This document shows positions 21,366-37,430 of a DNA stretch of 64,000 nucleotides, piece by piece. The position numbers and the translations under genes are program-made. The DNA is from Methanotrichaceae archaeon (GTDB lineage: Archaea > Halobacteriota > Methanosarcinia > Methanotrichales > Methanotrichaceae), in contig CAWDLW010000020.1 in assembly GCA_963803145.1 (NCBI GenBank), positions 153,515 to 217,514 of the forward strand, written 5' to 3'. A model generated the notes under the pieces. The model had not been told where the DNA came from and searched no databases. It saw only the letters and a program-made list of their open reading frames with translations. Position 1 is the stretch's first letter. Each line of letters begins with the position of its first letter.

Positions 21366-22370
21366 GTGAGGCTTTACCTAGCTATAGCGATTCTGCTGCT
21401 ACTGGCCAATATTGCACAGGCGCATGTTCCGCTGTTCCCGGAAGGGAATGAGAATATATCTTCAGCCATGCTGATATCAGATCCGGGGAAATCGTGGGCT
21501 ATCTATAGCACCATAAGCCCAGAAAGGCCGCAATATTATTCGTTTTATATGGACAAAGGCAAAGAGATTCTGCTAACGCTCCTAAAGACTGCAAACCCGA
21601 CGGAAAAGGGCTTTGAACCAAATATGGCGCTTCTTGGGCCTGGGCTTAATTCCACGGGCACGCTTCCGAGTCATGTGAATATCCCCAAAGGCTATGGAGT
21701 CATCACTGTAAAAAGCAACAGCTCTGATCAGGCCGTTTATGAGCCCTTTGGGCCTAGCAGCTACTATCAGCAATCGGATCTTGATATAGCAGCCCCCGAA
21801 TCGGGCATGTATTATGTAGCGGTTTACAGCAACAATAATAGGAGTAATGTAAGTAGCAGTATGATCGGCCATTACAGTCTGGCCATAGGCTATCGCGAAG
21901 AGTTCACCTTTGCAGAGAGGATTCTTACACCACTAAGACTTATATCAGTATATCAGTGGGAAGGACAAAGCCTGTCTACAATATTGATGCCCATACTTGT
22001 AGCTTTTCTCATAGGGTTATTCGTCATCTGGCGCAGCACCATTCGGACTCTCTTTTATAGAGCAGGCACTTTGGCTGGTTTCCTAATCCTCGGTACAGGC
22101 GCAACAGTGCTTTCCCAGATGGCCTTCAGCCTGATCCGTGCACCTGCAGGATCAGAGGTTGCTATAACAGTTCTATTGGCAATCATCCCTGTAGTTCTCG
22201 GCGTTGTTTCATTGCGTTTATCACGAGGCGAGGCAGGAATTCTTCAAAGGGTTATGATGGCGGTCATAGGAACTATAGCTCTATTGGCCGGGTCCGGACT
22301 GATAGCGGGGCCTCTGCTGGCAATAGCTGCGAGCGTGCTGCCGTCGAGAAAAAGTGAATCTGCAGCCTAA
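21366..22370 (+). CDS. Secreted beta-domain plus multi-TM membrane protein
   Basis: Signal peptide (AQA-HVP), YEPF motif and several C-terminal TM segments. Confidence 0.75.
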   Translation: MRLYLAIAILLLLANIAQAHVPLFPEGNENISSAMLISDPGKSWAIYSTISPERPQYYSFYMDKGKEILLTLLKTANPTEKGFEPNMALLGPGLNSTGTLPSHVNIPKGYGVITVKSNSSDQAVYEPFGPSSYYQQSDLDIAAPESGMYYVAVYSNNNRSNVSSSMIGHYSLAIGYREEFTFAERILTPLRLISVYQWEGQSLSTILMPILVAFLIGLFVIWRSTIRTLFYRAGTLAGFLILGTGATVLSQMAFSLIRAPAGSEVAITVLLAIIPVVLGVVSLRLSRGEAGILQRVMMAVIGTIALLAGSGLIAGPLLAIAASVLPSRKSESAA

Positions 22371-22637
22371 CTTTCATTTGACTCTTGATGTTGCTCCAAT
22401 TTAACCTATGCTTGAAATAAAATACAGGAAACATTAATAGAATTCTGAAAACATAAGCTTTAATTAGTGAGAAATTGATTGGCGATTCATGGTAGGGATG
22501 GATAGCCCAAACTTAGGCCTAGTTAGCTGGGCAGTTAAGTCTCTTATAGCTGAAATTATTTTGCCTAATCACATTCTAAGATTAGCTTGCCAAAGTACTT
22601 CCTTTGAGAGGAAAGCTATCCTTGTGAGGCGATTGGT

Positions 22638-23426
22638 TTGAGTATAGTGGGAAAGTTTTCGTTTGTCACTATAATTTACCTACTATTAATATCTTGTACA
22701 GTATTATTAATGCAATCTGGAGCCGAGAACCAAAATCAACCGCCGAATATTCTCAGCTTAAGTCCTGATATGCCGAGCCCCCAGCAGGTAGGAGCGGTTA
22801 TAACTTGGCGCGCAATAGCCTCTGATCCGGAAAACGATCCAATCTATTACAGGTTCTCAATAGACGGCCCTCAGACAGGAGGCCAATGGAAAGTTATACA
22901 AGATTGGAGCCTGAGCAACACCTGGTCTTGGAAGGCTGGAGATAGTGATGCAGGAAGTTCTAATATCCAGGTGGAGATCCGAGATGGGAAACGCGGAGGC
23001 CCCTCCGATATAGATGCATTCAAAGAATATGATAATTACCAAATTATACAAAACCGGCCTGCCAACTTGAACGTAGAAGTGGCTAACGATGTCTATTCCG
23101 ATAAGGATCGCGTTGTATACTATTGCCAGGAAGGGAAGGACTTCTACGTTAAGAACAGAATCTATCTGACCGGACCTGATCTGAATAAGGTAAAGAGCGT
23201 GAAGTACGTTCTACATCCATCCTTCCCGAATCCTGAACAAATCTCTGAAGATTCAAGCAATGATTTTGAAATATGGATATGGACCTGGGGGAAATTCCCT
23301 GTAAAGGCTATAATTACTACCAAGAGCGGCCAGCAGTTTGAGAAGGATTATGATTTTTCATTCAAATCCAAGTTTGAAGAGGCGCAAAGAATGGGAATAC
23401 CCCAAGTTAGTAATTGTGAGGATTGA
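22638..23426 (+). CDS. Secreted Ig-like plus prokaryotic YEATS-like domain protein
   Basis: ASDPENDPIYYRF...QDWS..NTWSW Ig-like domain; VKSVKYVLHPSFPNP...FEI...TWGKF YEATS signature. Confidence 0.8.
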   Translation: MSIVGKFSFVTIIYLLLISCTVLLMQSGAENQNQPPNILSLSPDMPSPQQVGAVITWRAIASDPENDPIYYRFSIDGPQTGGQWKVIQDWSLSNTWSWKAGDSDAGSSNIQVEIRDGKRGGPSDIDAFKEYDNYQIIQNRPANLNVEVANDVYSDKDRVVYYCQEGKDFYVKNRIYLTGPDLNKVKSVKYVLHPSFPNPEQISEDSSNDFEIWIWTWGKFPVKAIITTKSGQQFEKDYDFSFKSKFEEAQRMGIPQVSNCED

Positions 23427-26400
23427 TGCTCCTCAAGCTTAGTCTTTTTTCTCAAGCGAAAAGGAATTCAAAGGCTTTAGGGTTATTACTAGTTATCATA
23501 TGTCTCTTATCGATCGGTCAAGCGAATGCAACATGTTCTGTTTCGACTGATAAGTCTCAATATAACCTAGGAGAAACTGTAACATTTCAATTCTCCGTAG
23601 ATTGTGATTGTACTGCCAGTCTGGCGATTGTTTTGCCAGATGGTAGCGGCGGTGTCTTTTATTCTGAGGACGTTACTGCTGGCACACATCAAACATCTGG
23701 CACGGCCTCAGAACCATGCGGAACACACACGGTGATTTTAAAGGTATCGTGCAACGGAGGGGTTCCAAATAAACCCAAACCTAACTACTATCTCGCTGAT
23801 TCTAGCAGTTCGAACTCATGCGAAGCAGAGTGTACCTATGATGTAATTTGTCCTCAACCATCCGGATGCACAGAGACCTATCGATGCAATAATAACGTTG
23901 CCGAAAGGCTATGTTATCAGAACGGAAACCAATATTGGCAAGTCTCTGATGACTGTAACGCCTACAGCCCCCAGCGACAATGCGTTAATGGTAACTGCGT
24001 AGATGTTACTCCGCCCCAACCATCCTGTAATCAACAGGCTTGCCAAAGCAAAAGTGGCCCTATTGACCAGCCTTATATTAGAGATGGCAAAATGTACCAG
24101 AGGTACAGGGAGTGCAACTGTGTTGGAGGCAATTGTCAGTGCAGCCAAGTTGAAAAGGAGGTGCCCTGTACAGGCATAATCTCCGGCAAAGTAACAGATT
24201 CTTCAAGTGGCACGCCGATATCTGGCGCATCGATTGTTATTGGTAGTTGGTCCGGTACAACTAATGCCAACGGTGCATTCAGTAGTTACCAGGCATTCTG
24301 TCCGTCTACAACTTATGTGCTAACATGTTCGGCTCAGGGTTACGTGCCCATCAGCCAGGATGTAGTAACTGACGGAAACGGAAATGCATACGTTCCTCTA
24401 ACCCTTCAGCTGTCGTGCTCAGGCACAATCTCTGGTCATGTCTCCGATATCAATACTAAGTCTCCAATCCCTGGAGCAACATTATTAATCTGTCCAAGCG
24501 GAGGCGACTGCTGGTCTCCTCCACCTGTAGATTCAACAGGACTTTATAGCTCAGGCGGAAAGGCTTGTCCTTCAACTACCTATGATGTAACCTGCTCTGT
24601 AGAAGGCTATAAGTCATCCACCCAAACTGTAACTACGGATAATAAAGGGAATGCATGGCAGGATTTCAAACTAGAGCCCAATTGTCAAGGCGAGATCTCT
24701 GGGCACGTTTCCGATTTTGAAAATAAATCTCCTATAATAGGCGCAACCTTATTGATATGCAAGAAAGGTGGAGATTGCTGGTCTCCTGCACCGGTAGATT
24801 CAACGGGGTTATACAGCTCAGGGAAGCAGGTATGTCCCTCGACCAGCTATGATCTAACTTGCTCTGCAGAAGGCTACAATTCTTCTACCTTATCCGTAAC
24901 CACTGATGATAAGGGAAACGCATGGCAAGACTTCAAATTGAAGCGCAATTGTCAGGGCATATTATCCGGCAAGGTACTCAATTCAATCACCAATGAACCA
25001 GTCCAAGGCGCTAATCTGCTAATCTGCCAGAATGGGAAGTGTTTTGATCCAGTTATCACCGATTCTTCAGGCCAATACACCTTGAGCGGACTATGTCCAT
25101 TGACCGATTATGAGATAACCTGCTCCGCTGAAGGTTACAAGACTTATGAGAATACGGGTACAACAAAAGATGATGGAAACTCACTGCATGAGATCCTCTT
25201 AGAGCCTGATTGCCAGGGTACGATTTCCGGCAAGGTGCTTGATGCTACTACCAAAGCCACTATCCAGGGGGCTAATCTACTAGTTTGCACGAACGGAAAG
25301 TGCATGGACCCGGTTATTACTGATTCAGAGGGTCAGTTTAGCTTGAGCAAGGTTTGTCCTTCGATAAGCTACGATATAACCTGTTCTGCATCTGGTTACA
25401 TAACTTATCAGAGCACAAACACCACAGATGATAAAGGCAACTCGCTCCATGAAATCCTACTTGAGCCTGAATGCAAAGGCGCGATTTCCGGCAAAGTTCT
25501 AGATGGTCTAACCAATAATCCCGTTCAGGGAGCAAGCATAACGATTTGTCATAGTGGAAAATGCTCCGATCCAGTAACTACCGATTCAGCAGGCCAATAT
25601 AGCTTCAATAAAGGTTGTCCATCGAGCGATTATGAGATAACCTGTTCTGCTTCAGGCTATCAAACATACAAGAATACAGGCAAGACTGATGAAAAAGGAA
25701 ATTCATTACATGAAATTCTTCTGGAGAGAGAGCTAACAATTAAAGTCTGGACCGATAAAACGGAATACAAAGCAGGCGAAGAAGTAACTATCCATTACGA
25801 GACCAGCATTGAGAGCGCTGGTCGCAGGATATCCATTACTTCTACAGGGTCCCAGACACCTCCATTCAATCAGGTATTTGGGGAAAATACATTCGCAAAG
25901 GAAAAGAGCGGAACTAGAAAGTTCACCCCAAATAAGGCTGGAACATACGAGATAAAGCTTGAAGCTTGGACGGATAACGATAAAAAAGAAGATCAATGCA
26001 CGATTACCGTATGCGGTGGAACCATATCCGGCAAAGTATTGAACTCGCTTACCAACAAGCCAGTCCAAGGAGCAACGATAGCAATATGCATAAATGGAAA
26101 TTGCTCAAAGCCGATTGTTACCGATGCCTCAGGACAATATAGTTCGAACGGATTCTGTCCCGCAATCAATTACGACATAACATGCTCTGCAAGCGGCTAC
26201 CAAACTTACAAGGGATCGAGCTATACAGATGAGAGTGGAAATTCTCTGCATGAAATCCTGTTAGAGCCTGAATGCAAAGGCACTATTTCGGGCAAGGTCC
26301 TGAACTCACATACTAATAAGCCTGTTCAAGGTGCTACTATCACCTTCTGCGTTAACGATAAATGCCTAGATCCAGTAACAACTGATTCAGCAGGCCAGTA

Positions 26401-29400
26401 TAGCAAGAACGGCTGTCCTTCAACAAGTTACAATGTGACCTGCTCAGCCCCAGGCTACAAGGACAATCAGGGAGTGACTAATACCGATGGGAATGGAAAT
26501 GCAGTCTATGAGATCCAGCTTGAACCAGAATGCAAGGGTACTATATCCGGCAAGGTCCTCAACTCTTTGACTAATAATCCCGTTCAGGGGGCTAAGATAA
26601 CAATTTGCCAGGATGTATATAATAAATGTTCAGATCCAGTGATTACCGACTCTTCAGGTCAGTTCGTTTACTCAAAAGGCTGTTCTGTAATGGGCTATAA
26701 GATAACCTGCTCTGCAGACGGCTATAAGACCTATCAGGACTCGAGCAATACAGACGATGACGGGAATTCTCTACACGAAATTCTCTTGGAGCCTGAAGGC
26801 CAAGGGGCAATATCGGGCAAGGTCCTGAACTCACTTACCAATAAGCTTGTCAAGGGTGCAACTGTCACTATCTGCGTGAATGGAAAGTGCTTGGACCCTG
26901 TAACAACCGATTCGGCTGGCCAATACAGCAAAAAAGGTTACCCATCTATTGATTATGAGATAACTTGTTCTGCCTCGGGTTATCAGAACTATACTAACAC
27001 TGGCAAGACAGACGAGAAAGGAAACTCTCTACATGAGATTCTCTTAGAACCAAATTGCCAGGGTACAATTTCAGGTAAAGTTCTCAACAGCCGGACAAAT
27101 AAACCCGTTCAGGGAGCGAGCGTTAAAATTTGTCAGAGCAGCAGATGCTCAGATCCCATAACTACTGATGAAGCTGGCCAATACAGCATGAATAAGGGTT
27201 ATCCTTCGGTCGATTATAATATAACCTGCACAGCTCAGGGTTACATAACATATCAAAAGACTGGCGTAACTGACGATAAGGGTAACTCATTGCATGAGAT
27301 TCTGCTTGAACCCAATTGCAATGGCATGATCTCAGGAAAAGTGATTAATGGGCTCACAAATAAACCAATTCAAGGAGCTAGCGTCAAGATTTGTCAATAT
27401 GGAAAATGTTCAGACCCGGTTATTACCGGTTCTTCAGGTCAATATAGCTTTAATAAGGGTTGCCCATCCATAAGCTACAATATAACCTGCTTAGCTAAAG
27501 GCTATAAGGATTATAGTGATACAGGCATTACAGATGATAGCGGAAATTCTTTAAACGAGATACTGCTTGAGCCTGATTGCTCAGGCAAGATATCTGGTAA
27601 AGTTCTCGATGGCCTGACAAACAAACCTATTCAGGGTGCAAGCATCAAGGTATGTCAGAGCGGCAGATGCTCAGATCCTGTTACTACCGATTCAGCAGGC
27701 CAGTATAGTTTGAATAAGGGTTGTCCTTCCATCGATTATAATATAACTTGTACGGCTCAGGGCTATGAGACTGTTACAGAGCCAGGAAACACGGACGAAA
27801 AGGGCAATTCACCTCATGATTTCCTCCTCGAACCAATTTGTGACGGCACTATATCTGGTAAAGTGCTGGATGGCCAGACCAACTTGCCGGTTCAAAGCGC
27901 AAGTATTAAAATTTGTCAGCACGGAAGGTGCTCTGATCCAGTCATTACCGACTCTTCAGGCCAGTATAGCTTTAATAAAGGTTGTCCTTCGATCGACTAT
28001 AATATTACATGTACAGCTCAGGGCTATGAGACTGTTACAGAGTCAGGAAACACAGACAATAAGGGTAACTCGCCTCATGATTTCTTATTAGAACCTAGTT
28101 TAGCGCTTAAAATTTCGACCGATACAACAGAGTATAAAACAGGCGAAAATGTAATTATCCATTATGAGACGGGCGTTGAGAATGCCGGGCGAAGAATAAC
28201 TGTCATGGAACAGGGAACAAAAACAACGCTATTCACTAAGACATTCGGCGAAAACGACTTTCAGAAAGAGAAGAGCGGAACCAGGAATCTTACTATTGAT
28301 AAACCTGGAACTTATATGGTTAAACTAGAAGCTTGGACCAGCAAAGAACACAAGGATGCCAGCTGCAAATTCAATGTCTCAGAGAAAGATCTAGCCCTCA
28401 AGATATGGACAGATAAAACAGAGTATAAAGTGGGCGATGAGGCGACCATTTACTATCAGACTGGTGCTGAGAATGCTGGTCGCCGAATAATAGTTAGCTT
28501 AAATGGAACGCCTGTTACGACATTTGGAGAGAATAACTTCCCCAAGGAAGCAAACGGAACTAAGAAACTTACTTTGAATAAATCCGGGGCTTACACTGCC
28601 AAGCTGCAAGCATGGACCAGTAAGGAAAGCAAGGATGCAAGCTGTGAGTTCAATGTAGTTGAAAATAGGCAGCCAATCATAATCTCCATAAGCGCATCGC
28701 CTAAATCACCTCAGCAGCTATTTACCATTAAGACGATTGGCATAGTGCTAGTTCTAACTAAAGCGTCAGATCCTGATAATGACTCGTTGCAGTACAAGTT
28801 TGAGCTACGAAAGAAGGGCGAGGATTTCAAAGTAACACAGGATTTTAGCGCTATGCCATTATGGATATGGGAACCGCAAGATTCTGGAGAGTATGAGATT
28901 AGAGGAACGGTTACTGATGGTAAATCTGAAGTTAATCAGATAATAAATTATAGTATTATTAATAGGCCGCCGGTTTTCTGGATGAGCTTAGAGCCTCCAA
29001 TTCAGGCTCAAGTCGGAACAAAAGTGAACTGTTCAGTAACAGCTTTTGACCTGGATAGTGATACAATCCAATTCAAATTCTGGCTAAAAGGTCCATCGAC
29101 GAATAACCAGTGGCAGGCAAAGACTGACTGGATAAGCATACCTACTGATGGCTTTTTCAGCGATTATACATGGAACTGGATGCCAGGGCCTACAGATGTT
29201 GGGAAGAATGAGATAGACGTTTGGGTTAGAGATGGCAGCCATGCAGGCCCTGATGCATATGATGCGCATAATGTGTCTTCATATGAAATAGTAAATACGA
29301 CAGGACCAAATGGTGCTCAATTTGAAATAACTTCGCTAAAAGCATTACCACAGTCTCCGCAGGAACTATTGAAATCGCCCAAAATAATGTGTTCTATTCA

Positions 29401-31894
29401 AGCATCAAACCCTGGAAAGGATGCTCTGAGATACCAATTTGAATTGAAAAAGGAAGGTTCCGATTTCAAAGTTACCAGGGAATTTTCTGCTATGCCGATC
29501 TGGACCTGGGAGCCGAAAGAGGCAGGGAACTATGAGATTAAAGGTGTGGCTCAAAACAGCAAGGGACAGACGGCAGTCAAGGTAATCGATTATTCCATTA
29601 CTGGCAGCAAAGAGAATGAGATCAAGTTCAATGGCACATTGTATCGCAGCAATGCGCCAATGGGCTTTGCAGTTTATTACTTCAAAGTTGACAAGATTCT
29701 CGAAGGAGCCAATATCCCAGTAGGCGATCCCATTGGCGTGGACATATATGATGATTCGAAGCCGCTTGGCGAAAGAGGCCATGCTGACTCACTCCGAGAA
29801 GGAGATAAGGCAGAGGTCTATGCCAGCATCGACACAGATAAAGGCAAGTGGAATGATGGATATGAGATAGCTTGGCTAGCGGGCATAACCGGAGATAAGA
29901 AATATTACATTAATAAAATCGGATCTGGGAATGAACCTCCGAAGCTTCTCTTCTTGGAGCCGGATAAGCCCAGTCCGCAGAATCCCAATACGCAAATAAC
30001 CTGGATGGCAAAGGCGGAAGATCCTGATAATGATATCATAAGTTACAGGTTTGAGCTAAAAGGACCATCCTCTCATGATTATAAGGTGGTCAAAGACTGG
30101 TCTCAGGAGAATACCTGGACCTGGAATGCAGGAAATGATGATACAGGCAATAATACCATTCGTGTCCAGGTAAAAGACGGCAAACATGGAGACGTTGATG
30201 ACGAGGCATATGCCAATTATACAATAGAACCCAAATTGGAAGATATCAGGTTCATTGGTACCTGCTATCGTAATCAAACGGTCATAGGGTTTAGGGCATA
30301 TTACTTCAAAGCTGATAAGATCCTCGAAGGTCCAGACATTCCAAAAGATGACTTGATAGCCGTATATACATATGAGAGTAAGTATGCTCCCGATCACGGA
30401 GGCAGCTATGATGCCCTCGATCAAGGAGATCAAGCAGAAGTTTATGCTAGCATCGATACATCCAAAGGCAAGTATAACACTGGATTTGAGACGGCATGGC
30501 AATCTAGTATAGTGGAAGATAAGAGATATTACGTCAAGAAGATTACACCTGAGCTGGAAATAAATGTCTCGACCGATAAGCCAGAGTATGAAATTGGTGA
30601 TGAAGTAAACATAAATTATGAGACGAACATTGAAAACGCTGGCCGAAGGATAACTGTTAGTTCTGTGCCTGGGACACAAACGCCTTCTTTCAGCAAAGAA
30701 TTCAGTGAGAATGATTTAGCAAGCGAAAAGAGTGGAACCTGCAAGCTCGAAATGGATGAGCCTGGAATCTATGTTGTAAAACTAGAGGCGTGGATAGGCA
30801 ATGAACATAAAGATGTTGAATGCAAATTCGTAGTAAATGAGCTAAAAATAGAAGTTTCCACAGATAAACAAGAGTATAACGTAGGTGAGGAAACAACTAT
30901 TAATTATAATATTAATATAGGTGATGCTCATCGTCAAATTGTAGTAGACTCAATACCAGGGTCCCAAACCTCAGGTTTCTCTAAGACTTTTACTGATGAT
31001 ACTTTTTCAAAGGATAAGAGTGGGGCTAAAAAGCTAATTTTGAATATTCCAGGAACATATGAAGTTAAATTTGATGCGTGGACCACCAAACAAAATCTTG
31101 AAGAAATAATCGATTTCAATGTCGTTGGGAATGAAGGATCAAAACCGCCATCGCAATGGACCTACGAATTAACCAGAAACCAATACTTCTCCAAAGTAAG
31201 GGGTGATATAATCGAGATTGAACCCCTAGAGTATAACGAAATCGATGATAAGCATGTAGCGGTAGATATCAAGGTTACAAACACTAGATCAACCAGATAT
31301 AATGTGGAGACATATAAAGGTCCCTCTATAGGCGAGAATTTCTACGATAGAACGTTTACTCTCACGGAGTCTAATTCAGACACTGGTTCAAACGAAATAA
31401 CTATTCGAGCTGTTCGAGGTCTAAAATGTAGCGATCCAAGACTATCAAACAATCCGAAACTATCAAATGCATACGTTGCCACGATAGACGTCAATGTTGA
31501 TTATGGTACATATTTTTTGGAGCATGTAATTGGATTATTGGGAATGAAAGGAGTTAAGAGCTGCAAACCAACAACAGAAACGCTTGTGACGATAAAAGAT
31601 GGAATAAAAAGCGAGTCATTCCCTAATGAACCCATGTCAGATGTTAGCTTACAAGATTGGGCCTTAAAATCTAAGGATTATTTTGTAAATCATCCCGATG
31701 TTCTCGTAAAAGCAGTTGGCGAATGTGGAGTTGATTATGCAGCGGGTCAGCTGTTAGATTTATTAACAGGAACTATTTATTCTAAATTAACGGAGATAAT
31801 CGCTTTAGTACAAAATGCGGTACAATCTTTCACAGAACCTTCAGAAGAGACTGTTACGATATATTTCTACAAGGGAGACCCAAAGTTGACGTAA
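23423..31894 (+). CDS. Giant secreted Cys-rich protein: 14 carboxypeptidase-regulatory-like repeats plus Ig-like domains
   Basis: Signal peptide; 14 units of G.ISG(K/H)V...TD..GQY....CP...Y.ITC.A.GY; six TD(K/T)..Y..G(E/D) domains; two YYFK.DKILEG domains. Confidence 0.9.
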   Translation: MMLLKLSLFSQAKRNSKALGLLLVIICLLSIGQANATCSVSTDKSQYNLGETVTFQFSVDCDCTASLAIVLPDGSGGVFYSEDVTAGTHQTSGTASEPCGTHTVILKVSCNGGVPNKPKPNYYLADSSSSNSCEAECTYDVICPQPSGCTETYRCNNNVAERLCYQNGNQYWQVSDDCNAYSPQRQCVNGNCVDVTPPQPSCNQQACQSKSGPIDQPYIRDGKMYQRYRECNCVGGNCQCSQVEKEVPCTGIISGKVTDSSSGTPISGASIVIGSWSGTTNANGAFSSYQAFCPSTTYVLTCSAQGYVPISQDVVTDGNGNAYVPLTLQLSCSGTISGHVSDINTKSPIPGATLLICPSGGDCWSPPPVDSTGLYSSGGKACPSTTYDVTCSVEGYKSSTQTVTTDNKGNAWQDFKLEPNCQGEISGHVSDFENKSPIIGATLLICKKGGDCWSPAPVDSTGLYSSGKQVCPSTSYDLTCSAEGYNSSTLSVTTDDKGNAWQDFKLKRNCQGILSGKVLNSITNEPVQGANLLICQNGKCFDPVITDSSGQYTLSGLCPLTDYEITCSAEGYKTYENTGTTKDDGNSLHEILLEPDCQGTISGKVLDATTKATIQGANLLVCTNGKCMDPVITDSEGQFSLSKVCPSISYDITCSASGYITYQSTNTTDDKGNSLHEILLEPECKGAISGKVLDGLTNNPVQGASITICHSGKCSDPVTTDSAGQYSFNKGCPSSDYEITCSASGYQTYKNTGKTDEKGNSLHEILLERELTIKVWTDKTEYKAGEEVTIHYETSIESAGRRISITSTGSQTPPFNQVFGENTFAKEKSGTRKFTPNKAGTYEIKLEAWTDNDKKEDQCTITVCGGTISGKVLNSLTNKPVQGATIAICINGNCSKPIVTDASGQYSSNGFCPAINYDITCSASGYQTYKGSSYTDESGNSLHEILLEPECKGTISGKVLNSHTNKPVQGATITFCVNDKCLDPVTTDSAGQYSKNGCPSTSYNVTCSAPGYKDNQGVTNTDGNGNAVYEIQLEPECKGTISGKVLNSLTNNPVQGAKITICQDVYNKCSDPVITDSSGQFVYSKGCSVMGYKITCSADGYKTYQDSSNTDDDGNSLHEILLEPEGQGAISGKVLNSLTNKLVKGATVTICVNGKCLDPVTTDSAGQYSKKGYPSIDYEITCSASGYQNYTNTGKTDEKGNSLHEILLEPNCQGTISGKVLNSRTNKPVQGASVKICQSSRCSDPITTDEAGQYSMNKGYPSVDYNITCTAQGYITYQKTGVTDDKGNSLHEILLEPNCNGMISGKVINGLTNKPIQGASVKICQYGKCSDPVITGSSGQYSFNKGCPSISYNITCLAKGYKDYSDTGITDDSGNSLNEILLEPDCSGKISGKVLDGLTNKPIQGASIKVCQSGRCSDPVTTDSAGQYSLNKGCPSIDYNITCTAQGYETVTEPGNTDEKGNSPHDFLLEPICDGTISGKVLDGQTNLPVQSASIKICQHGRCSDPVITDSSGQYSFNKGCPSIDYNITCTAQGYETVTESGNTDNKGNSPHDFLLEPSLALKISTDTTEYKTGENVIIHYETGVENAGRRITVMEQGTKTTLFTKTFGENDFQKEKSGTRNLTIDKPGTYMVKLEAWTSKEHKDASCKFNVSEKDLALKIWTDKTEYKVGDEATIYYQTGAENAGRRIIVSLNGTPVTTFGENNFPKEANGTKKLTLNKSGAYTAKLQAWTSKESKDASCEFNVVENRQPIIISISASPKSPQQLFTIKTIGIVLVLTKASDPDNDSLQYKFELRKKGEDFKVTQDFSAMPLWIWEPQDSGEYEIRGTVTDGKSEVNQIINYSIINRPPVFWMSLEPPIQAQVGTKVNCSVTAFDLDSDTIQFKFWLKGPSTNNQWQAKTDWISIPTDGFFSDYTWNWMPGPTDVGKNEIDVWVRDGSHAGPDAYDAHNVSSYEIVNTTGPNGAQFEITSLKALPQSPQELLKSPKIMCSIQASNPGKDALRYQFELKKEGSDFKVTREFSAMPIWTWEPKEAGNYEIKGVAQNSKGQTAVKVIDYSITGSKENEIKFNGTLYRSNAPMGFAVYYFKVDKILEGANIPVGDPIGVDIYDDSKPLGERGHADSLREGDKAEVYASIDTDKGKWNDGYEIAWLAGITGDKKYYINKIGSGNEPPKLLFLEPDKPSPQNPNTQITWMAKAEDPDNDIISYRFELKGPSSHDYKVVKDWSQENTWTWNAGNDDTGNNTIRVQVKDGKHGDVDDEAYANYTIEPKLEDIRFIGTCYRNQTVIGFRAYYFKADKILEGPDIPKDDLIAVYTYESKYAPDHGGSYDALDQGDQAEVYASIDTSKGKYNTGFETAWQSSIVEDKRYYVKKITPELEINVSTDKPEYEIGDEVNINYETNIENAGRRITVSSVPGTQTPSFSKEFSENDLASEKSGTCKLEMDEPGIYVVKLEAWIGNEHKDVECKFVVNELKIEVSTDKQEYNVGEETTINYNINIGDAHRQIVVDSIPGSQTSGFSKTFTDDTFSKDKSGAKKLILNIPGTYEVKFDAWTTKQNLEEIIDFNVVGNEGSKPPSQWTYELTRNQYFSKVRGDIIEIEPLEYNEIDDKHVAVDIKVTNTRSTRYNVETYKGPSIGENFYDRTFTLTESNSDTGSNEITIRAVRGLKCSDPRLSNNPKLSNAYVATIDVNVDYGTYFLEHVIGLLGMKGVKSCKPTTETLVTIKDGIKSESFPNEPMSDVSLQDWALKSKDYFVNHPDVLVKAVGECGVDYAAGQLLDLLTGTIYSKLTEIIALVQNAVQSFTEPSEETVTIYFYKGDPKLT

Positions 31895-31955
31895 GTAAAA
31901 AAATTTGTAGAGTCTACTAAGGGCGTATTATACTACTGGCGAGAGGCGAGAGTGG

Positions 31956-32966
31956 ATGAGGCAGGACCTGAAAATGCTGATGGTTGTAGTATTGCTATTT
32001 TTTATCCGGGGAGTGACCGCAGAGGAAGTGCCAGATGGAACCATATATGGGCATGTCTATGATGCCGATACTAAGCAGCCGCTATCTCAGGCTTTTGTAT
32101 ACTGCCAGGATACCAATTGCCCTAAACAAACGACCGATAAAGATGGATATTATACCATTGCAGGGTGTTTTTCACCCTCTACTTCGTACATTATTAAGTG
32201 TACTAAGTTCGGCTATGAGTCATCCAGTAAGACGGTTGTAACAGATAAACAGGGAAAGGCTGAAGAATCTTTTTCTATTAAGAAAGCCACCGAAAAAGAA
32301 AATTCAATTAATGCGCAGTCATGGATCTCAAAAGGAGATGATTTAAACAATCAAGGCAATTATGAGGGTGCCGCTGAAGCCTATGCAAAGGCTATAGCGC
32401 TTAATCCTTCCTTAGAAAACGATCAATGGTTCAAAATAGGTTTTGCATTTCTGATGGCGAAAAAATATCAAGAGTCCATTGACGCCTACAACAAAGTATT
32501 GGAATCAGATCCATCAGATACAGAAGCATTGCTGTGGATAGGTATAGCCCTTCGCGATTCTGGCAAAAAAGACGAAGCTATAAAATATTTCGATAAAGTC
32601 ATAAATGAAAATCCACATCATTCAAAGGCTTGGAACAATAAGGCAATATGTCTAATGGAGTTAGGAAATCAGGAAGAAGCAATCCAATGCTATGATAGAG
32701 CTATCGAATACGCCGAGGATGATAGTGATGCTTCCGCTTATTCAGATAACAAAGGAAATGCTCTCTTTAAGATGGGAAGGCATGAAGAGGCACTTAAGGC
32801 GTATGATAAGGCCATTGAATTAGCTCCAAGATATGGAAATCCCCAGTTTGATAAAATTGTAGCGCTTAGAAAGCTTGGTCGAGAAGATGAAGCTAACCAA
32901 TTGCAAAATAAATATGGTTGCACTACAGAAGATTTAGAAATTTGGGAAAAGAATTGGGGATCTTAA
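31956..32966 (+). CDS. Secreted shared N-module plus TPR repeats
   Basis: DGTIYGHVYDADTKQPLS module, then TPR-like AWNNKA...EEAIQCYDRAIE units. Confidence 0.88.
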   Translation: MRQDLKMLMVVVLLFFIRGVTAEEVPDGTIYGHVYDADTKQPLSQAFVYCQDTNCPKQTTDKDGYYTIAGCFSPSTSYIIKCTKFGYESSSKTVVTDKQGKAEESFSIKKATEKENSINAQSWISKGDDLNNQGNYEGAAEAYAKAIALNPSLENDQWFKIGFAFLMAKKYQESIDAYNKVLESDPSDTEALLWIGIALRDSGKKDEAIKYFDKVINENPHHSKAWNNKAICLMELGNQEEAIQCYDRAIEYAEDDSDASAYSDNKGNALFKMGRHEEALKAYDKAIELAPRYGNPQFDKIVALRKLGREDEANQLQNKYGCTTEDLEIWEKNWGS

Positions 32967-33023
32967 CTCCTATCATTTATTATGCTGAAGAGAGGTTTGT
33001 GAGTAGTTAGGGGTTGGAATAAG

Positions 33024-33797
33024 ATGAAATTAGGCGGAATTTCTTTAGTTATGCTACTTGTCATATGTGTCAATGGTGTAGTAATTGCTGAAGATGGCTC
33101 AACATCTGGAGGCTTAATCTATGGTCACGTCTACGATGCTGATACTAAGCAGCCGCTATCTCAGGCTTGGGTGTATTGCCAAGATATTAAAACCCCAAAA
33201 GAGATAACTGATAGCCAGGGATATTATGCCATTAAAGGCGATTTCTTGCCTTCAAAGACCTATAATATCGAATGCACTAAGTAAGGCTATAAATCAACCC
33301 AAGTTAGCTCGACGACAGACGAAAACGGCAAAGCGAGGGCAGATATTTATTTGGAATCTAGTTCATCTAAAAGCGATGCTGGCGCATCAGCTTCATTTAC
33401 CTCATTACCATTGAATGTGACTCCATCAGCAAGCAGAACCCTGCCAATAAATATCACTGTACCGAATGATATCAACTTGCATCGAGATAATAGTTACTCA
33501 ATCTCAGGCAAAGTATTCGATCCCAATAGAAATGAAAATGTTGATGCTAATGATAATGGTCTTTCCGGCTGGTTGATTAATCTGGAGCAACCTGCAGGTA
33601 TAGTTATCGCTAATGCTACAAGTAACGGTGCCGGGGATTATGCTTTCAGCGGCCTGAACCCAGGGATATACGTTATCTATGAGGTTCTCCCCACAGGCTG
33701 GGCTGCGGTTATGCCTGCTGATGGCAAATATACTGTAAATTTGACGGATAGTGACTTAACGGGTCTCAACTTTGCAAATAAAGAGATATCCACTTGA
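33024..33797 (+). pseudogene. Shared N-module plus SdrD-B/Cna-B-like domain, with an in-frame TAA at 33282-33284
   Basis: ECTK*GYK versus paralog CTKFGY/CAKYGY/CTKHGY; ORFs 33024 and 33351 are in the same frame. Confidence 0.85.
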
Positions 33798-33972
33798 TTA
33801 TTCAGCAACAGGTCTATCGCTGATTCAGTGAAGCCAAGGATAATTTGCAATACTTTCAGCTAGGATCTGTAATATTATATTTTAATTATTATTTATAGAT
33901 TGTAATAACTCTGCGTATTCTTTAGAAAGGATTAAGTGCCGAGCGCTGTTTATATGATCAGAGGCTGGGCTG

Positions 33973-34743
33973 ATGAGAAAGGACCTGAAAAGGCTAATGG
34001 TTATAGTATTGCTGTTTTTCTTGTGGGAAGTGACTGCAGAGGAAGTACCAGATGGCACCATCTATGGGCATGTATATGATGCCCAAACTAAGCAGCCGCT
34101 ATCTCAGGCTTTCGTGTATTGCCAGGGGATTAATTCACCAAAGGAAACAACCGATAGCCAAGGATATTACGCAATAGAAGGCGGCTTTATAGCTTCTGAG
34201 ACGTATTTTATAGAGTGTGCCAAATATGGTTATAAATCGGATAAGAAAAGTATAACAACAGATTTGAATGGAATTGGAGAAATGGATTTTTATTTAGGGA
34301 CTGGAGATATATTTGGCAAATCACCAGAAGCTCAATCAGCATCTCAGAAAAATATACAGAATATTCAAAACCAAAAGTCAGGAGATATCAAGGGTGGATT
34401 GCCAGGAATAATGATTATTTCTCCAGAAGAGGGCTCTACAATTCCTTCAGGCAATATCATTGTCTCAGTCAGTGTCACTAACTTCTCTCTTGTGAACAAG
34501 CTAGGAGCTAGTAGTATCCCGAGAGAAGGGCATCTTCATTACTATATGGATGTCCCTGTTCCAACAACCCCGGGCAAACCAGCTGTTACCGCCACTGGAA
34601 CCTTCGCGCCAAAATATGAAACTGCATTTACATGGCCAAGTGTTGCCCCGGGCAAACACAAATTCACTGTTCAGCTTGTGAACAACGACCACACTCCAGT
34701 AATACCCCTGGTTTATGCCACGGTTAATGTTACTGTGATATAA
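33973..34743 (+). CDS. Secreted shared N-module plus His-containing beta-sandwich domain
   Basis: Module, then EGHLHYYMD...GKHKFTVQLVNNDH. Confidence 0.82.
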   Translation: MRKDLKRLMVIVLLFFLWEVTAEEVPDGTIYGHVYDAQTKQPLSQAFVYCQGINSPKETTDSQGYYAIEGGFIASETYFIECAKYGYKSDKKSITTDLNGIGEMDFYLGTGDIFGKSPEAQSASQKNIQNIQNQKSGDIKGGLPGIMIISPEEGSTIPSGNIIVSVSVTNFSLVNKLGASSIPREGHLHYYMDVPVPTTPGKPAVTATGTFAPKYETAFTWPSVAPGKHKFTVQLVNNDHTPVIPLVYATVNVTVI

Positions 34744-34802
34744 TATCAACGACGGAGTTAAAATGGCAAACCTATTCGAAGCAATATAATGGGGTAAGGG
34801 CA

Positions 34803-35714
34803 ATGAAATCTATTGCAATCAGTCTGATTATGCTTTGGATCGCTGTAATCAATACAGTGGCAGCTGAGGATCAATCCATGCCCGATGGCACCATCTATGG
34901 GCACGTATATGACGCTCAGACCAAGCAGCCATTATCAAATGCCTGGGTGTATTGCCAGGAGGTTAAGTGCCCCAAGCAATTGACAGATAGCAATGGATAC
35001 TACGCCATAGAGAATTGCTTCTCGCCTTCAAGCACTTATGTTATTGATTGCACAAAAAATGGTTATCCAACAGCTAAAAAAACAGTTGAAACGGATTCTA
35101 GCGGCAAAGCCGAAATTGATTTTATTTTAAGTAATGCGCCAAATCCTTCGCCAAACACTGAAGCAGACGATGCCTATGCCAAAACCAAGGAACCGGCAAC
35201 GACTAGCTATATCAACTTTACAAAAGAGGCCGAATTTCAATACATGCCAGCAAGCCAGAACGGCAGCAGTGAGACAAAATGGGTGCCATGTGACACCGAA
35301 TCTAATGACAGCAATGATTGGGTGAAACTTACTGACCGCAATGGAACGACATATTGGGTGAAACGTCTCTGCGTCCAGAATTATAATGTATCATCAATCG
35401 GGACTGCCATCACATCAGCGGGCTCCACAAATGCTAATGGCATCAGGTTGTTTGGCTATATACATGATGTCGAAAGCGATATGCCAATTAATGGTGCACG
35501 AGTAGTTGCAACAGATCAAGCAGGTAATAGCTTAACGGCTGTTACAGATATGAATGGATATTTTACTTTAAATCTATTGAAAAATGTCCAATATACCGGC
35601 AATGTTGGAGCAGATGGATATCTCAATCTTCCAATTGAAATAATGTTATCAAGTGCTGAATTTCCCGAAAAAGTACTAGGGCCCGAGACGATGAAGCTTA
35701 CGCCTCGGGATTAG
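34803..35714 (+). CDS. Secreted shared N-module plus a second carboxypeptidase-regulatory-like domain
   Basis: Module, then LFGYIHD...PINGARV...TDMNGYF. Confidence 0.82.
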   Translation: MKSIAISLIMLWIAVINTVAAEDQSMPDGTIYGHVYDAQTKQPLSNAWVYCQEVKCPKQLTDSNGYYAIENCFSPSSTYVIDCTKNGYPTAKKTVETDSSGKAEIDFILSNAPNPSPNTEADDAYAKTKEPATTSYINFTKEAEFQYMPASQNGSSETKWVPCDTESNDSNDWVKLTDRNGTTYWVKRLCVQNYNVSSIGTAITSAGSTNANGIRLFGYIHDVESDMPINGARVVATDQAGNSLTAVTDMNGYFTLNLLKNVQYTGNVGADGYLNLPIEIMLSSAEFPEKVLGPETMKLTPRD

Positions 35715-35956
35715 TTTACTACACATCCTGATACAGTCTGAGAGATTTGCAGCTTTGACCTCAGGATGACAACCGTAGGCAAATTGGATTCTTCGTGCTT
35801 CTGAAATGCCGATATCTTATTGATCAAGACAGACTCAGAAGGTAATTGTGAATGATTAGCTATCCCACTACCGCGAGGATTGACACCTTTGATGATAATT
35901 CCGATAATTTGATAAGCTATAAGCTAGCAAGCATTTGCCATAAGTAGGCTGGGAGA

Positions 35957-37138
35957 ATGAGGTCCGCCGCAATCTGCCTTGTATTGCTTACAATTGCTGC
36001 GATTGATCTAGTAGTAGCAGAGGATCAATCCGTGCCAGATGGCACAATCTACGGGCATGTCTACGATGCCGATACAAATCATCCGCTATCTCAAGCTTTC
36101 GTTTATTGCCAGGATATCAAGTGCTCGAAGCCGACGACCGACAGCACAGGCTATTATGCCACTGATTCTTGTTTCTCGCCATCCAAAACCTATACAATTC
36201 AATGTACCAAGCATGGATACGAAACAGCAACAAAAAGCGTAACGACGAATCAGGATGGCAAAGCTGTAGCTGACTTTAATTTGGAGCCGGAGGGTTCTAA
36301 ACCAGCTAATGTGCAAGCAAATCAAATATCACCTGATTCTGGTTTAATTACTAACCCACAAGATGCTGAAATCTGGATCAACAAAGGAAGGGATTTTGAA
36401 CGAGTGGGTAAATACAACGATTCAGTAGATGCATATAATAGAGCTATCGAGATCAATCCTAATTTAGCAGAGGCTTGGCTAGATAAAGTTGTCCCCCTTG
36501 ATAACATGGGCAAACACAGCGACGCCATGCAGGCTATAGACAAGGCTATCGAAATCGATCCCAATTTTTCAAGTGCCTGGTACTTGAAAGCACAATCACT
36601 AATTGATCAGAAAAATCCCGAGGATGCCATTAAAGCGTTTAATAACGCAATTGAAATCGACCCACGCTCTCCTCAAGCACTATCTTCCAGTATTTACATA
36701 GGTTTTGCTCTTATGGATCAGGGTGAGTATGATGAGGCCATTAAGATATACGACAAAATTATCGCGATCGATCCGAATTCTATTGAGAATATATTAGATA
36801 ACAAAGGATATGCCCTCAGTCACGTAGGCAAGTATGACGAGGCTCTGCAAGCTTTCGATCTAGCTATAGGAATCAATCGAAACAATTATGAAACTTCTGA
36901 TGCATGGGAGGGCAAAGGCGATGTATTTAGATCACAGAATAAATATGAGGATGCTATTAAGTGCTATGACGAGGCCATCAGAATCAATTCGGATAATAGT
37001 ATTGCTTGGGAAAACAAAGGATTAGCTCTTCAAAAACTTGGTCGAACTTCGGAATCAGATGCTGCCTTTGCCAAGGTCAAAGAGTTGAAACGGCTAGGTA
37101 AGTTCATGGAGGCTGACTATCAGCCAAGCTCCAAATAG
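35957..37138 (+). CDS. Secreted shared N-module plus TPR repeats
   Basis: Module, then about seven TPR units (AIEI(N/D)P...AW..K). Confidence 0.88.
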   Translation: MRSAAICLVLLTIAAIDLVVAEDQSVPDGTIYGHVYDADTNHPLSQAFVYCQDIKCSKPTTDSTGYYATDSCFSPSKTYTIQCTKHGYETATKSVTTNQDGKAVADFNLEPEGSKPANVQANQISPDSGLITNPQDAEIWINKGRDFERVGKYNDSVDAYNRAIEINPNLAEAWLDKVVPLDNMGKHSDAMQAIDKAIEIDPNFSSAWYLKAQSLIDQKNPEDAIKAFNNAIEIDPRSPQALSSSIYIGFALMDQGEYDEAIKIYDKIIAIDPNSIENILDNKGYALSHVGKYDEALQAFDLAIGINRNNYETSDAWEGKGDVFRSQNKYEDAIKCYDEAIRINSDNSIAWENKGLALQKLGRTSESDAAFAKVKELKRLGKFMEADYQPSSK

Positions 37139-37430
37139 AGATTGGGGTTATGAAGTTATTCCAGTACTAACCTCCAAATCGCAGAAATCTGAGAAAGAAA
37201 GGTTTCTTTTAGCAAGGAACCATCAGTGAGAGTACTTTGGAAAAAATACCTCGCCGATGATCAAATCGTAGGATGTATCAATGAGATTGGCGTGAGGTAT
37301 GTCATTAACTACCGTGAGAGTGTTCGCTAGGCTAGATAAGAATTATGAACACTTCCTTAGTGATGCATGTTGTGAATATCGCTCGCTCTATCAGCGAAAA
37401 CTCTTTCTACGATTTCTGCTCAAGAGTGGT

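What the first reader, a model, noticed from the sequence alone, without database searches (positions are those of the whole stretch)
31956..37138. Five-gene array: constant secreted N-module with variable C-terminal domains
Seen: five consecutive genes behind the giant protein all start with a signal peptide plus G.IYGHVYDA.T..PLS.A(F/W)VYCQ...TD..GYY...Y.I.C.K.GY, a relative of the giant protein's repeat. They then diverge into TPR, SdrD-B-like, His-motif, second beta-sandwich and TPR domains. DNA such as AAGCAGCCGCTATCTCAGGCTT recurs in three genes, and leaders fall into two types in order A-B-A-B-B. Cys covary: the middle two are present together in three genes and absent together in two, implying two disulfides. 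Inference: a modular surface-display system in which a common docking domain attaches interchangeable heads to a scaffold, diversified by recombination between the constant 5' parts.
Basis: partly seen in the sequence, partly recalled or inferred. Interest (0 to 1): 0.75.

Follow-up and report, generated by a model that had tools for sequence, protein, structure and literature searches.

The report
Secreted archaeal proteins sharing one N-terminal module
Five neighbouring genes of a methane-producing archaeon encode exported proteins that share one conserved small domain and carry different binding domains behind it, and they form a movable gene block with a giant surface protein, probably a kit for decorating the cell surface.

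Summary
Five same-strand genes behind a 2822-aa secreted protein each encode a leader, a conserved ~85-aa module, then TPR, SdrD_B-like, DUF4399-like, a second beta-sandwich or TPR. One point was missed: gene 2 has an in-frame TAA at codon 87.

The module is not a new fold. It is a distinct, Cys-braced subtype of the Pfam CarboxypepD_reg transthyretin-like domain.

New here:
- The subtype defines a rare family: about 34 clusters among the top 150 database hits, and 5 of 392 class genomes, all in one family.
- Nearly identical N-modules (80-86%) carry unrelated C-termini, so the heads have been exchanged.
- The five are old paralogs with saturated synonymous sites. Only the g1/g3 5' ends look recently exchanged.
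- A multi-module large protein sits directly upstream in 6 of 11 loci.
- The block from the secreted pYEATS gene through the giant to the five genes (~15 kb) is missing from both congeneric genomes.

Against docking: three genomes carry a lone module gene and no giant, and the one complex prediction gave no verdict.

Verdict: a real, undescribed accessory surface-protein cassette. "Constant handle, variable heads" is supported. Attachment to the giant scaffold is only inferred.

The parts
22638..23426 (+). Secreted pYEATS protein (262 aa): N-terminal hydrophobic leader, PKD/Big_9-like domain of the type also found in the giant, then a prokaryotic YEATS domain. Its stop overlaps the giant's ATG (TGATG).
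   Evidence: Pfam pYEATS E 2e-20, Big_9 1.2e-3; sequence. A 60-61% identical pYEATS gene also sits directly before the 885-aa large protein in L033.
23426..31894 (+). Giant secreted multi-module protein (2822 aa from the ATG; the ORF listing starts it at TTG 23423). It holds a leader, an MG-like domain plus Cys-rich repeats, 14 four-Cys CarboxypepD_reg modules (about 24158-28120), MG-like and PKD-like domains, two NTR-like domains, and a unique C-terminus with no anchor recognised.
   Evidence: (PF13620 E 1e-148, 14 stretches).
29603..29947 (+). Conserved ~105-aa domain of the giant, copy 1 (aa 2061-2175). It has no Pfam or PDB sequence match and is predicted as an OB-like beta-barrel resembling the complement C345C/NTR domain.
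   Evidence: 48-67% identity to the large proteins of L024, L025, L029, L033 and L034. No hits. AF2 pLDDT 84.7. Foldseek to C3/C4/C5 C345C, E 1e-4, TM 0.53-0.60.
30227..30547 (+). Second copy of the NTR-like domain (aa 2269-2375).
   Evidence: 174 bits.
31956..32966 (+). g1: type A leader, four-Cys N-module, TPR repeats.
33024..33797 (+). g2: type B leader, two-Cys N-module, SdrD_B-like sandwich. It is interrupted by an in-frame TAA at 33282-33284, so it is probably a recent pseudogene (or an assembly or strain variant).
   Evidence: Read through with X, it aligns at 42% over 258 columns to the intact 249-aa P0069.
33973..34743 (+). g3: type A leader, two-Cys N-module, Big_7/DUF4399-like domain with a His motif.
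34803..35714 (+). g4: type B leader, four-Cys N-module, ~100 aa with no match, then a second CarboxypepD_reg sandwich.
   Evidence: (N-module pLDDT ~95).
35957..37138 (+). g5: type B leader, four-Cys N-module, TPR repeats.
   Evidence: Full-length relative P0043 at 46%.
32073..32094 (+). Shared 22-mer (codons for KQPLSQA), also at 33147-33168 and 34090-34111. It lies just 5' of the g1/g3 mosaic breakpoint.
22357..37384 (.). Approximate limits of the ~15-kb accessory block (pYEATS gene, giant, g1-g5), which is missing from the two same-genus genomes.
   Evidence: The left flank matches G001 and G002 at 83-87% up to window ~22355. The right flank matches from ~37385. No module matches in G001 or G002.

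Best explanation
The five genes are old paralogs of a small family of exported proteins. The family was found only in the window's own archaeal family, which earlier notes call Methanothrix-type.

Each protein has three parts:
- a cleavable leader;
- one specialised, highly conserved subtype of the transthyretin-like CarboxypepD_reg beta-sandwich, probably braced by one invariant and one optional disulfide;
- an exchangeable C-terminal domain, typically a protein- or ligand-binding one (TPR, adhesin-type sandwiches, DUF4399-like; elsewhere fasciclin, beta-propeller-like, transglutaminase).

The genes are co-encoded, and by spacing probably co-transcribed, with a secreted pYEATS protein and a giant secreted protein built from the same domain kit. 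The whole set forms a ~15-kb accessory block.

Proposed mechanism (inferred). All products are exported. The N-module is a common handle that places the different heads on one extracellular structure. That structure is either the giant itself or an envelope receptor shared with it. The result is a modular adhesive or matrix layer.

New combinations arise over evolutionary time by exchange of the part 3' of the module, not by ongoing recombination within the array.
For: Shown:
- Domain identity: PF13715 at 34-65 bits against a 32.2 cut-off in g1, g3, g4 and g5. Fold match to the carboxypeptidase D transthyretin-like domain 5aq0_B, TMt 0.81, rmsd 2.0 A.
- A distinct subtype. Small-protein modules form one clade apart from the giant's repeats (SH-aLRT 100). 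In every locus they score 145-177 bits against the profile, while repeats inside large proteins score <=74 bits.
- Variable heads behind near-identical modules. The g4 module is 82-83% identical to P0033, P0024 and L023b. The g5 module is 80-86% identical to L027a, P0042 and P0055. Their C-termini are unrelated and similarity ends at aa ~110-145.
- Conserved neighbourhood. A large protein is directly followed on the same strand by 1-4 module genes in L023, L024, L025(=L026), L029 and L034, as in the window. Gaps run from an overlap to 329 nt.
- The block is gained or lost as a unit.
- In this genome the module occurs only at this locus: 19 of 19 matches.
- pYEATS-to-giant stop/start overlap, and the same gene pair in L033.
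- Cys pair: both present in 34, both absent in 15, only one in 3 of 52 modules.

Inferred: export (leaders read from the sequence only), the handle function, and the role in adhesion or matrix.
Against: - No binding partner was demonstrated.
- 5 of 11 distinct loci with at least 1 kb of upstream sequence have no large protein before the module gene: L045, L046, L047, L022 and L027.
- G330, G313 and G005 (96, 87 and 99% complete) have one module gene each, with no giant-type module and no NTR-like domain at E<=1e-3.
- L033 has pYEATS plus a large protein but no module gene after it.
- L023's giant lacks the NTR-like domain, so that domain cannot be a universal receptor.
- Some larger multi-module proteins also begin with the module right after the leader, e.g. 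P0127, P0134 and P0144. This fits a generic building block.
- No anchor (TM segment or sorting signal) was recognised on any of the seven products.
- No expression data.
- One of the five genes is broken.
Confidence: 0.45

Rival explanations
1. Generic spacer. The N-module is just a stable beta-sandwich stalk or folding unit, of the kind common in secreted prokaryotic proteins, with no specific partner. The array and the giant are neighbours because both arose from local duplication and shuffling of one domain kit. Each small protein acts on its own.
For: CarboxypepD_reg, Cna-B and SdrD-B type sandwiches are widely used as stalks (established knowledge; the Foldseek list includes CnaB2 8bdw and Bap 7dm0). 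Solitary module genes exist without any giant in three genomes. There is a continuum from single-module to multi-module proteins that start with the module. The small proteins reuse PKD-like and second-sandwich domains also found in the giant.
Against: The module is far better conserved than a spacer needs to be. It shows 80-86% identity between organisms whose C-termini are unrelated, and there are invariant residues specific to the subtype. It forms a clade separate from the internal repeats. It always sits immediately after the leader. The gene order with a large protein recurs in 6 of 11 loci.
Confidence: 0.33
2. Scaffold docking in the strict sense. The N-module is a dockerin-like unit that binds repeated or conserved sites on the giant protein, making a cellulosome-like complex.
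For: The conserved giant-then-module-gene order. Two strongly conserved elements sit in an otherwise fast-changing system: the N-module, and the NTR-like domain of the large proteins (48-67% identity). The block is inherited as a unit.
Against: There are module genes without any giant. L023 has four module genes but no NTR-like domain. No cohesin or dockerin signatures appear. This reading is counted here as a special case of the best explanation.
Confidence: 0.2
3. Gene debris. The small genes are fragments of a formerly longer multi-module gene, broken by stops and on their way to loss.
For: g2 carries an in-frame TAA. The module is homologous to the giant's repeats. Mobile-element genes flank related loci: an integrase in L023 and a transposase in L022.
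Against: Each gene has its own start, its own leader and an upstream purine-rich stretch. Four of the five are intact. Full-length relatives with the same architecture exist elsewhere: g5 with P0043, g2 with P0069, g1 with P0110. pN is much lower than pS (0.21-0.28 against 0.61-0.84), which indicates purifying selection.
Confidence: 0.03
4. Polymorphic toxin or effector array: a constant N-terminal delivery domain with variable C-terminal toxins and immunity genes.
For: Only the formal resemblance of a constant N-terminus and a variable C-terminus in a tandem array.
Against: The C-termini are TPR and beta-sandwich binding domains, with no toxin or nuclease families. There are no small immunity ORFs in the 57-242 nt gaps.
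Confidence: 0.02

Closest known systems
Pfam CarboxypepD_reg / CarbopepD_reg_2 (PF13620, PF13715): the transthyretin-like domain of carboxypeptidase D/N/M (PDB 5aq0, 1qmu)
   Same: The same fold and sequence family: HMM scores above the cut-off in four genes. Foldseek gives rmsd 2.0 A over 80-81 columns at 23-29% identity.
   Different: This is a distinct clade. It has its own invariant motif (IYGHVYDA.TKQPLSQA[FW]VYCQ) and 2 or 4 conserved Cys. It is always placed directly after a leader, and it is restricted to one archaeal family among the 392 class genomes searched. No peptidase domain is attached.
N-terminal extension (NTE) domain of SusC-type TonB-dependent transporters (PDB 9hfj, 6ytc)
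   Same: A CarboxypepD_reg-like sandwich placed first after the signal peptide of a larger protein. It is a structural match (TMt 0.57-0.67).
   Different: The bacterial NTE precedes a TonB-dependent barrel in an outer membrane. Here the carriers are archaeal soluble secreted proteins with varied heads. The link is fold-level only.
Cellulosome cohesin-dockerin scaffolds (Clostridium thermocellum; X-dockerin complexes such as 5k39 and 2b59 appear low in the Foldseek list)
   Different: There are no cohesin or dockerin families. The constant module is N-terminal and homologous to the scaffold's own repeats. Binding is untested. Module genes exist without a scaffold.
MSCRAMM-type adhesins with SdrD B / Cna-B stalk repeats
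   Same: g2's C-terminal domain matches SdrD_B (E 5.9e-11). Both use prealbumin-like sandwiches in secreted adhesive proteins.
   Different: There is no ligand-binding A region, no LPXTG sorting signal and no Ser-Asp repeats. NCBIfam SdrC and SdrD scores are ~20 bits against cut-offs of 1700-2500.
Complement C3/C4/C5 C345C (NTR) domain, for the conserved domain of the giant
   Same: The predicted OB-like barrel aligns at TM 0.53-0.60, E 1e-4 to 1e-2. It sits in a protein that also has MG-like domains (weak A2M_BRD hit).
   Different: Identity is 9-15% with rmsd ~5 A. There is no thioester domain and no sequence-level match. This is a fold resemblance only.

Membership tests
CarboxypepD_reg / CarbopepD_reg_2 (PF13620 / PF13715) | HMM score at or above Pfam's gathering score | tested here: met
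   PF13715 scores: g1 41.4, g3 34.0, g4 65.2, g5 38.1 bits (cut-off 32.2). The truncated g2 ORF scores 27.4, below the cut-off.
CarboxypepD_reg / CarbopepD_reg_2 (PF13620 / PF13715) | Transthyretin-like beta-sandwich fold | tested here: met
   AF2 model of g4 residues 31-110 has pLDDT ~95. Foldseek to 5aq0_B gives TMt 0.81, rmsd 2.0 A.
Cohesin-dockerin (cellulosome-type) display | Dockerin (PF00404) on the subunits and cohesin (PF00963) repeats on the scaffold | tested here: not met
   Neither family appears among the Pfam hits of the five genes or the giant at E<=0.01.
Cohesin-dockerin (cellulosome-type) display | Specific binding of the constant module to the scaffold | not testable with these tools
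   It needs a pull-down, SEC or ITC experiment. The single in-silico attempt gave no verdict (see Tried and rejected).
Polymorphic toxin / CDI / Rhs-type arrays | C-terminal toxin domain followed by a cognate immunity gene | tested here: not met
   The C-termini are TPR, SdrD_B, DUF4399-like and CarboxypepD_reg. Intergenic gaps of 57-242 nt hold no ORF of 80 aa or more.
MSCRAMM adhesins (SdrC/SdrD) | A region, B repeats, SD repeats and an LPXTG anchor | tested here: not met
   There is only one B-like domain. NCBIfam scores are 19.5-20.6 bits against cut-offs of 1700-2500.
DUF4399 (PF14347), for the g3 C-terminus | HMM score at or above the gathering score | tested here: inconclusive
   Scores of 20.6-22.2 bits against a cut-off of 28. 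The Atlas feature search gives 0.91 to a DUF4399/Big_7 cluster, and 20 of 30 hits are in DUF4399 sets.
pYEATS (PF20305), for the upstream gene | HMM score at or above the gathering score | tested here: met
   72.9 bits against a cut-off of 26.9.
Alpha-2-macroglobulin / complement C3 family, for the giant | MG domains, a thioester domain and a C345C/NTR domain | tested here: not met
   There is only a 26-residue A2M_BRD start motif and a fold-level NTR resemblance. No thioester-domain hit.

The most novel reading that the evidence does not exclude
An archaeal counterpart of the cellulosome principle, built from a different fold. A transthyretin-like N-module would act as a dockerin, plugging interchangeable binding heads (TPR, adhesin sandwiches, propellers, fasciclin) onto a giant secreted scaffold. 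That could happen through the scaffold's conserved NTR-like domain or through its homologous modules. The whole kit would travel as a mobile ~15-kb cassette that lets filamentous acetate-using methanogens re-tool their surface for aggregation or partner contact.
Probability: 0.2. Interest if true: 0.7.

Novelty: new variant of a known kind. Interest (0 to 1): 0.42.

Why it matters
Acetate-using filamentous methanogens are the backbone of anaerobic granules and make a large share of biogenic methane. How their surfaces bind partners and matrix is poorly known.

This cassette defines a compact, sequence-recognisable family: leader, specialised sandwich, swappable head. It has a recurrent genomic partner, so the family can now be searched for, expressed and tested.

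If the module is a docking or anchoring handle, it would be a new non-cohesin solution to modular surface display in archaea, and a possible display tag.

If it is only a stalk, the locus is still a clear natural example of domain shuffling behind a fixed export module. It also adds two uncharacterised extracellular pieces: a secreted YEATS domain, and an NTR-like barrel conserved at 48-67% identity.

Tried and rejected
- Complex prediction of the giant's NTR-like domain with the g4 N-module, both given as alignments: score 0.00 and 0.00, 'no answer'. This is not evidence either way.
- The look-up of sequencing runs for 31900-37200: none was listed and no RNA holder was listed. So there are no read-level checks of the TAA and no expression data.
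- The pattern scan of genome contigs found only one relative. The viral-contig scan found none.
- PDB sequence searches found nothing for the NTR-like domain or for the g3 C-terminus.
- NCBIfam gave only sub-threshold hits, including 26-36 bits to a module of the anammox Kustd1514 S-layer model, whose cut-off is 1400.
- Cluster look-up: the window's proteins are singletons at 90% identity on one contig, and no informative names were returned. Strain comparison for swapped C-termini was therefore impossible.
- Earlier-findings look-ups by place (near) and by sequence returned nothing.
- Literature searches found no description of this family or cassette, judged from listings and abstract starts only: 'carboxypeptidase regulatory-like' with Methanothrix, Methanosaeta or sheath; 'CarboxypepD_reg' with archaea; 'pYEATS'. 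No paper was read in full.
- TAA recoding was rejected. It is a single stop at a codon where the closest paralog has TAT, and there is no other sign of an altered code.
- The polymorphic-toxin and gene-debris readings were rejected (see rivals).
- The sigma-70 promoter scan was not used, because the organism is an archaeon.

Full report
**1. What is there**

Five ORFs lie head to tail on the + strand behind a giant ORF. They are g1 31956-32966, g2 33024-33797, g3 33973-34743, g4 34803-35714 and g5 35957-37138. The gaps between them are 61, 57, 175, 59 and 242 nt.

The first ~125 residues align with 38 invariant columns of 128. A basic and hydrophobic leader ends in (V/T/I)A|E(E/D). After it comes G.IYGHVYDA.T..PLS.A(F/W)VYCQ...TD..GYY...Y.I.C.K.GY.

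- Leader type A is in g1 and g3, type B in g2, g4 and g5.
- The two middle Cys are present in g1, g4 and g5 and absent in g2 and g3.
- The 22-mer occurs exactly three times in the window, at 32073, 33147 and 34090.
- The C-terminal parts are TPR (g1, g5), SdrD_B (g2), a weak DUF4399/Big_7 with EGHLHYYMD (g3), and a second CarboxypepD_reg sandwich (g4).

One thing was missed. g2 has an in-frame TAA at 33282-33284 (codon 87), where the paralogs read F, Y, N or H. Read through with X, g2 aligns at 42% over 258 columns with an intact 249-aa relative, P0069. Its SdrD_B domain is undamaged. This is therefore a recent nonsense change, a strain variant or an assembly error. I could not check reads, because no run was listed.

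**2. What the module is**

The module is not an unnamed domain. It matches Pfam CarbopepD_reg_2 and CarboxypepD_reg above the cut-off in the four intact genes.

The AF2 model of g4 gives pLDDT of about 95 for residues 31-110. Its best solved match is the transthyretin-like domain of carboxypeptidase D: 5aq0_B at TMt 0.81 and rmsd 2.0 A, and 1qmu_A. The SusC NTE domain, Cna-B and X-dockerin modules appear lower in the list.

The giant has 14 such modules. The profile of the five N-modules hits them at E 1e-7 to 1e-16. Mean identity is 36%.

**3. A distinct subtype and a real family**

A profile search of 1.84 billion representatives gave 2587 hits at E<=1e-3 and 75 at E<=1e-30. In the top 150, about 34 clusters other than the window's own carry a single module at residues ~1-112. 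Most of the rest are multi-module large proteins.

I scanned those 34 against Pfam and aligned 32 of them. Behind the module they carry:
- TPR (P0034, P0039, P0043, P0110);
- SdrD_B (P0069, P0071);
- fasciclin (P0101);
- a transglutaminase core (P0124);
- beta-propeller-like 'WLIKTD' repeats (P0025, P0030, P0033, P0034, P0106, P0128; read from the alignment, with only a weak PQQ_2 Pfam hit, in P0025);
- PKD-like domains plus a second sandwich (P0020);
- nothing recognisable in many others.

In a tree of 52 small-protein modules and 11 giant repeats, the small-protein modules form one clade (SH-aLRT 100). The tree rests on only 84 columns, and 30 of its 56 inner branches are unresolved.

In each related locus the small genes score 145-177 bits against the profile, while repeats inside large proteins score at most 74 bits.

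**4. Distribution**

- In the window's own genome, all 19 matches lie at this locus.
- Of 392 genomes of the class, 5 (including the window's own) have a match at E<=1e-20. All are in the window's family: 4 of 104 others there, and 0 of 287 in the other seven families.
- Both same-genus genomes lack it.
- The window's proteins are singletons at 90% identity.
- One relative lies in a record titled as an uncultured Methanotrichaceae archaeon. Earlier notes of this scan call the genome Methanothrix-type. I did not verify the taxonomy myself.

**5. Link to the giant**

I read 11 distinct loci that have at least 1 kb upstream of a module gene.

In six of them a multi-module large protein lies directly upstream on the same strand:
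- the window;
- L023 (2314 aa, followed by four module genes);
- L024 (1360 aa, followed by one);
- L025, which equals L026 (967 aa, followed by two);
- L029 (1021 aa, followed by one);
- L034 (1007 aa, followed by one that is cut by the contig end).

In the other five there is none:
- L045 (G330);
- L046 (G313) and L047 (G005), where a 185-aa TPR gene precedes a protein that is the module alone;
- L022, with a transposase upstream;
- L027, with a membrane protein upstream.

G330, G313 and G005 have no giant-type module and no NTR-like domain anywhere at E<=1e-3. The link is therefore frequent but not obligatory.

The left flank of the window matches both congeners at 83-87% up to about 22355. 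The right flank resumes at about 37385. In G002 the two flanks lie 48 kb apart and are inverted. The pYEATS gene, the giant and g1-g5 thus form a ~15-kb block that is present or absent as a unit.

**6. The partners in the block**

The gene at 22638-23426 encodes a leader, a PKD/Big_9-like domain of the giant's type, and a prokaryotic YEATS domain. Its stop overlaps the giant's ATG (TGATG). A 60-61% identical gene sits 3 nt before the 885-aa large protein of L033, which also has a second copy nearby.

The large proteins share several parts:
- an MG-like domain with Cys-rich repeats at the N-terminus;
- the CarboxypepD_reg modules;
- PKD-like domains;
- a ~105-aa domain at window aa 2061-2175 and 2269-2375. 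It is 48-67% identical across L024, L025, L029, L033 and L034, but L023 lacks it.

That ~105-aa domain has no Pfam or PDB sequence match. Its model (pLDDT 84.7) resembles the C345C/NTR barrel of complement C3/C4/C5 only at fold level (TM 0.53-0.60).

**7. Recombination**

Between the five modules, pS is 0.61-0.84 and pN is 0.21-0.28. Identical residues use the same codon in 37-65% of cases. These are old paralogs under purifying selection. They are not a recently duplicated or homogenised array.

g4 and g5 have much closer relatives in other organisms (82-86%) than in the array (58-67%).

Head exchange is supported on the evolutionary scale. Within the tight g5 clade the heads are TPR, PKD-like plus unknown, SdrD_B, or unknown. 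Within the g4 clade they are propeller-like, unknown, a second sandwich, or none.

Inside the array there is one mosaic. g1 and g3 are 83% (leader) and 89% (next 72 nt) identical, but 56% identical beyond that. The maximum chi-square breakpoint falls at aligned nt 152-163, with permutation p = 0.0005-0.001. The module of g3 otherwise groups with g2. Much of this signal comes from the leader itself. Outside the leader, Fisher p ranges from 0.0007 to 0.5, depending on the third sequence.

The shared 22-28-mer lies just 5' of that breakpoint. The same 30-mer is 29/30 identical in L027, a contig from another source. I regard it as a possible exchange tract or a nucleotide-level constraint, and it remains unexplained.

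**8. Cysteines**

Of the 52 small-protein modules:
- 34 have both middle Cys, 15 have neither, and 3 have only one;
- the outer pair is present in 49.

The state of the middle pair changes at least 6 times on the tree. This fits one constant and one optional disulfide. The rows are related, however, and I could not measure distances, because model coordinates are not exposed.

**9. Mechanism and verdict**

What is shown is the architecture, the family, the head exchange, the recurrent neighbourhood and the block-wise inheritance.

What is inferred is the following. The products are exported. The module is a common handle that places varied binding heads on one extracellular structure, either the giant or a shared envelope receptor. 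The cassette serves adhesion or matrix building.

I give this 0.45. The strict 'docks on the giant' version gets about 0.2 within that figure. The main rival, a generic stalk module with no partner, gets 0.33.

No description of this family or cassette was found in three literature searches (listings only).

It is a new variant of a known kind: modular secreted surface proteins built from a known fold. It is of moderate interest.

Noticed in passing
window 22638-23426: A YEATS-type domain (pYEATS, 72.9 bits) sits in a protein with an N-terminal export leader and a PKD-like domain. It is translationally coupled to the giant gene. An extracellular YEATS domain is unexpected for a fold known as a reader of acylated lysines.
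   Followed up: partly
window 29603-29947 and 30227-30547: A ~105-aa domain is conserved at 48-67% identity in the large proteins of five other contigs. It has no Pfam or PDB sequence match. Its predicted barrel resembles the complement C345C/NTR domain (TM 0.53-0.60).
   Followed up: partly
window 33282-33284: In-frame TAA in g2 at a codon where the closest paralog has TAT. The downstream 170 codons are still open and homologous to an intact relative.
   Followed up: partly
window 32067-32096; L027 1200-1229: A 30-nt block encoding DTKQPLSQAF is 27-30/30 identical in g1, g2 and g3 and 29/30 identical in an unrelated metagenome contig, although synonymous sites around it are saturated.
   Followed up: partly
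window 22357-37384 against G002:C2: The flanks of the 15-kb block are 48 kb apart and inverted relative to each other in a same-genus genome. The locus therefore lies at a rearrangement point.
   Followed up: partly
window 21366-22370: A 334-aa protein with a leader, a ~200-aa external part and several C-terminal membrane helices. It has no Pfam family. It is conserved in both congeners and lies just outside the block.
   Followed up: no
window 20150-21103 (-): A two-domain fasciclin protein lies 1.5 kb upstream of the block. Fasciclin is also one of the heads found behind the N-module elsewhere (P0101).
   Followed up: no
window 11378-14152 (-): A type I restriction enzyme R subunit (ResIII plus EcoEI_R_C), which suggests that the wider region is accessory DNA.
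   Followed up: no
window 39289-41093 (-): An overlapping pair of a radical SAM/HhH protein and a DUF4130 protein.
   Followed up: no
L046 8980-10041; L047 2945-4033: In two related genomes a 185-aa TPR protein is followed by a protein of 125-143 aa that is the N-module alone. This is the reverse order of the g1/g5 fusion and may be a split or rearranged form.
   Followed up: no
L033 8078-9217 and 14861-15547: Two pYEATS paralogs (60-61% identical to the window's) flank the 885-aa large protein. No module gene follows it.
   Followed up: no
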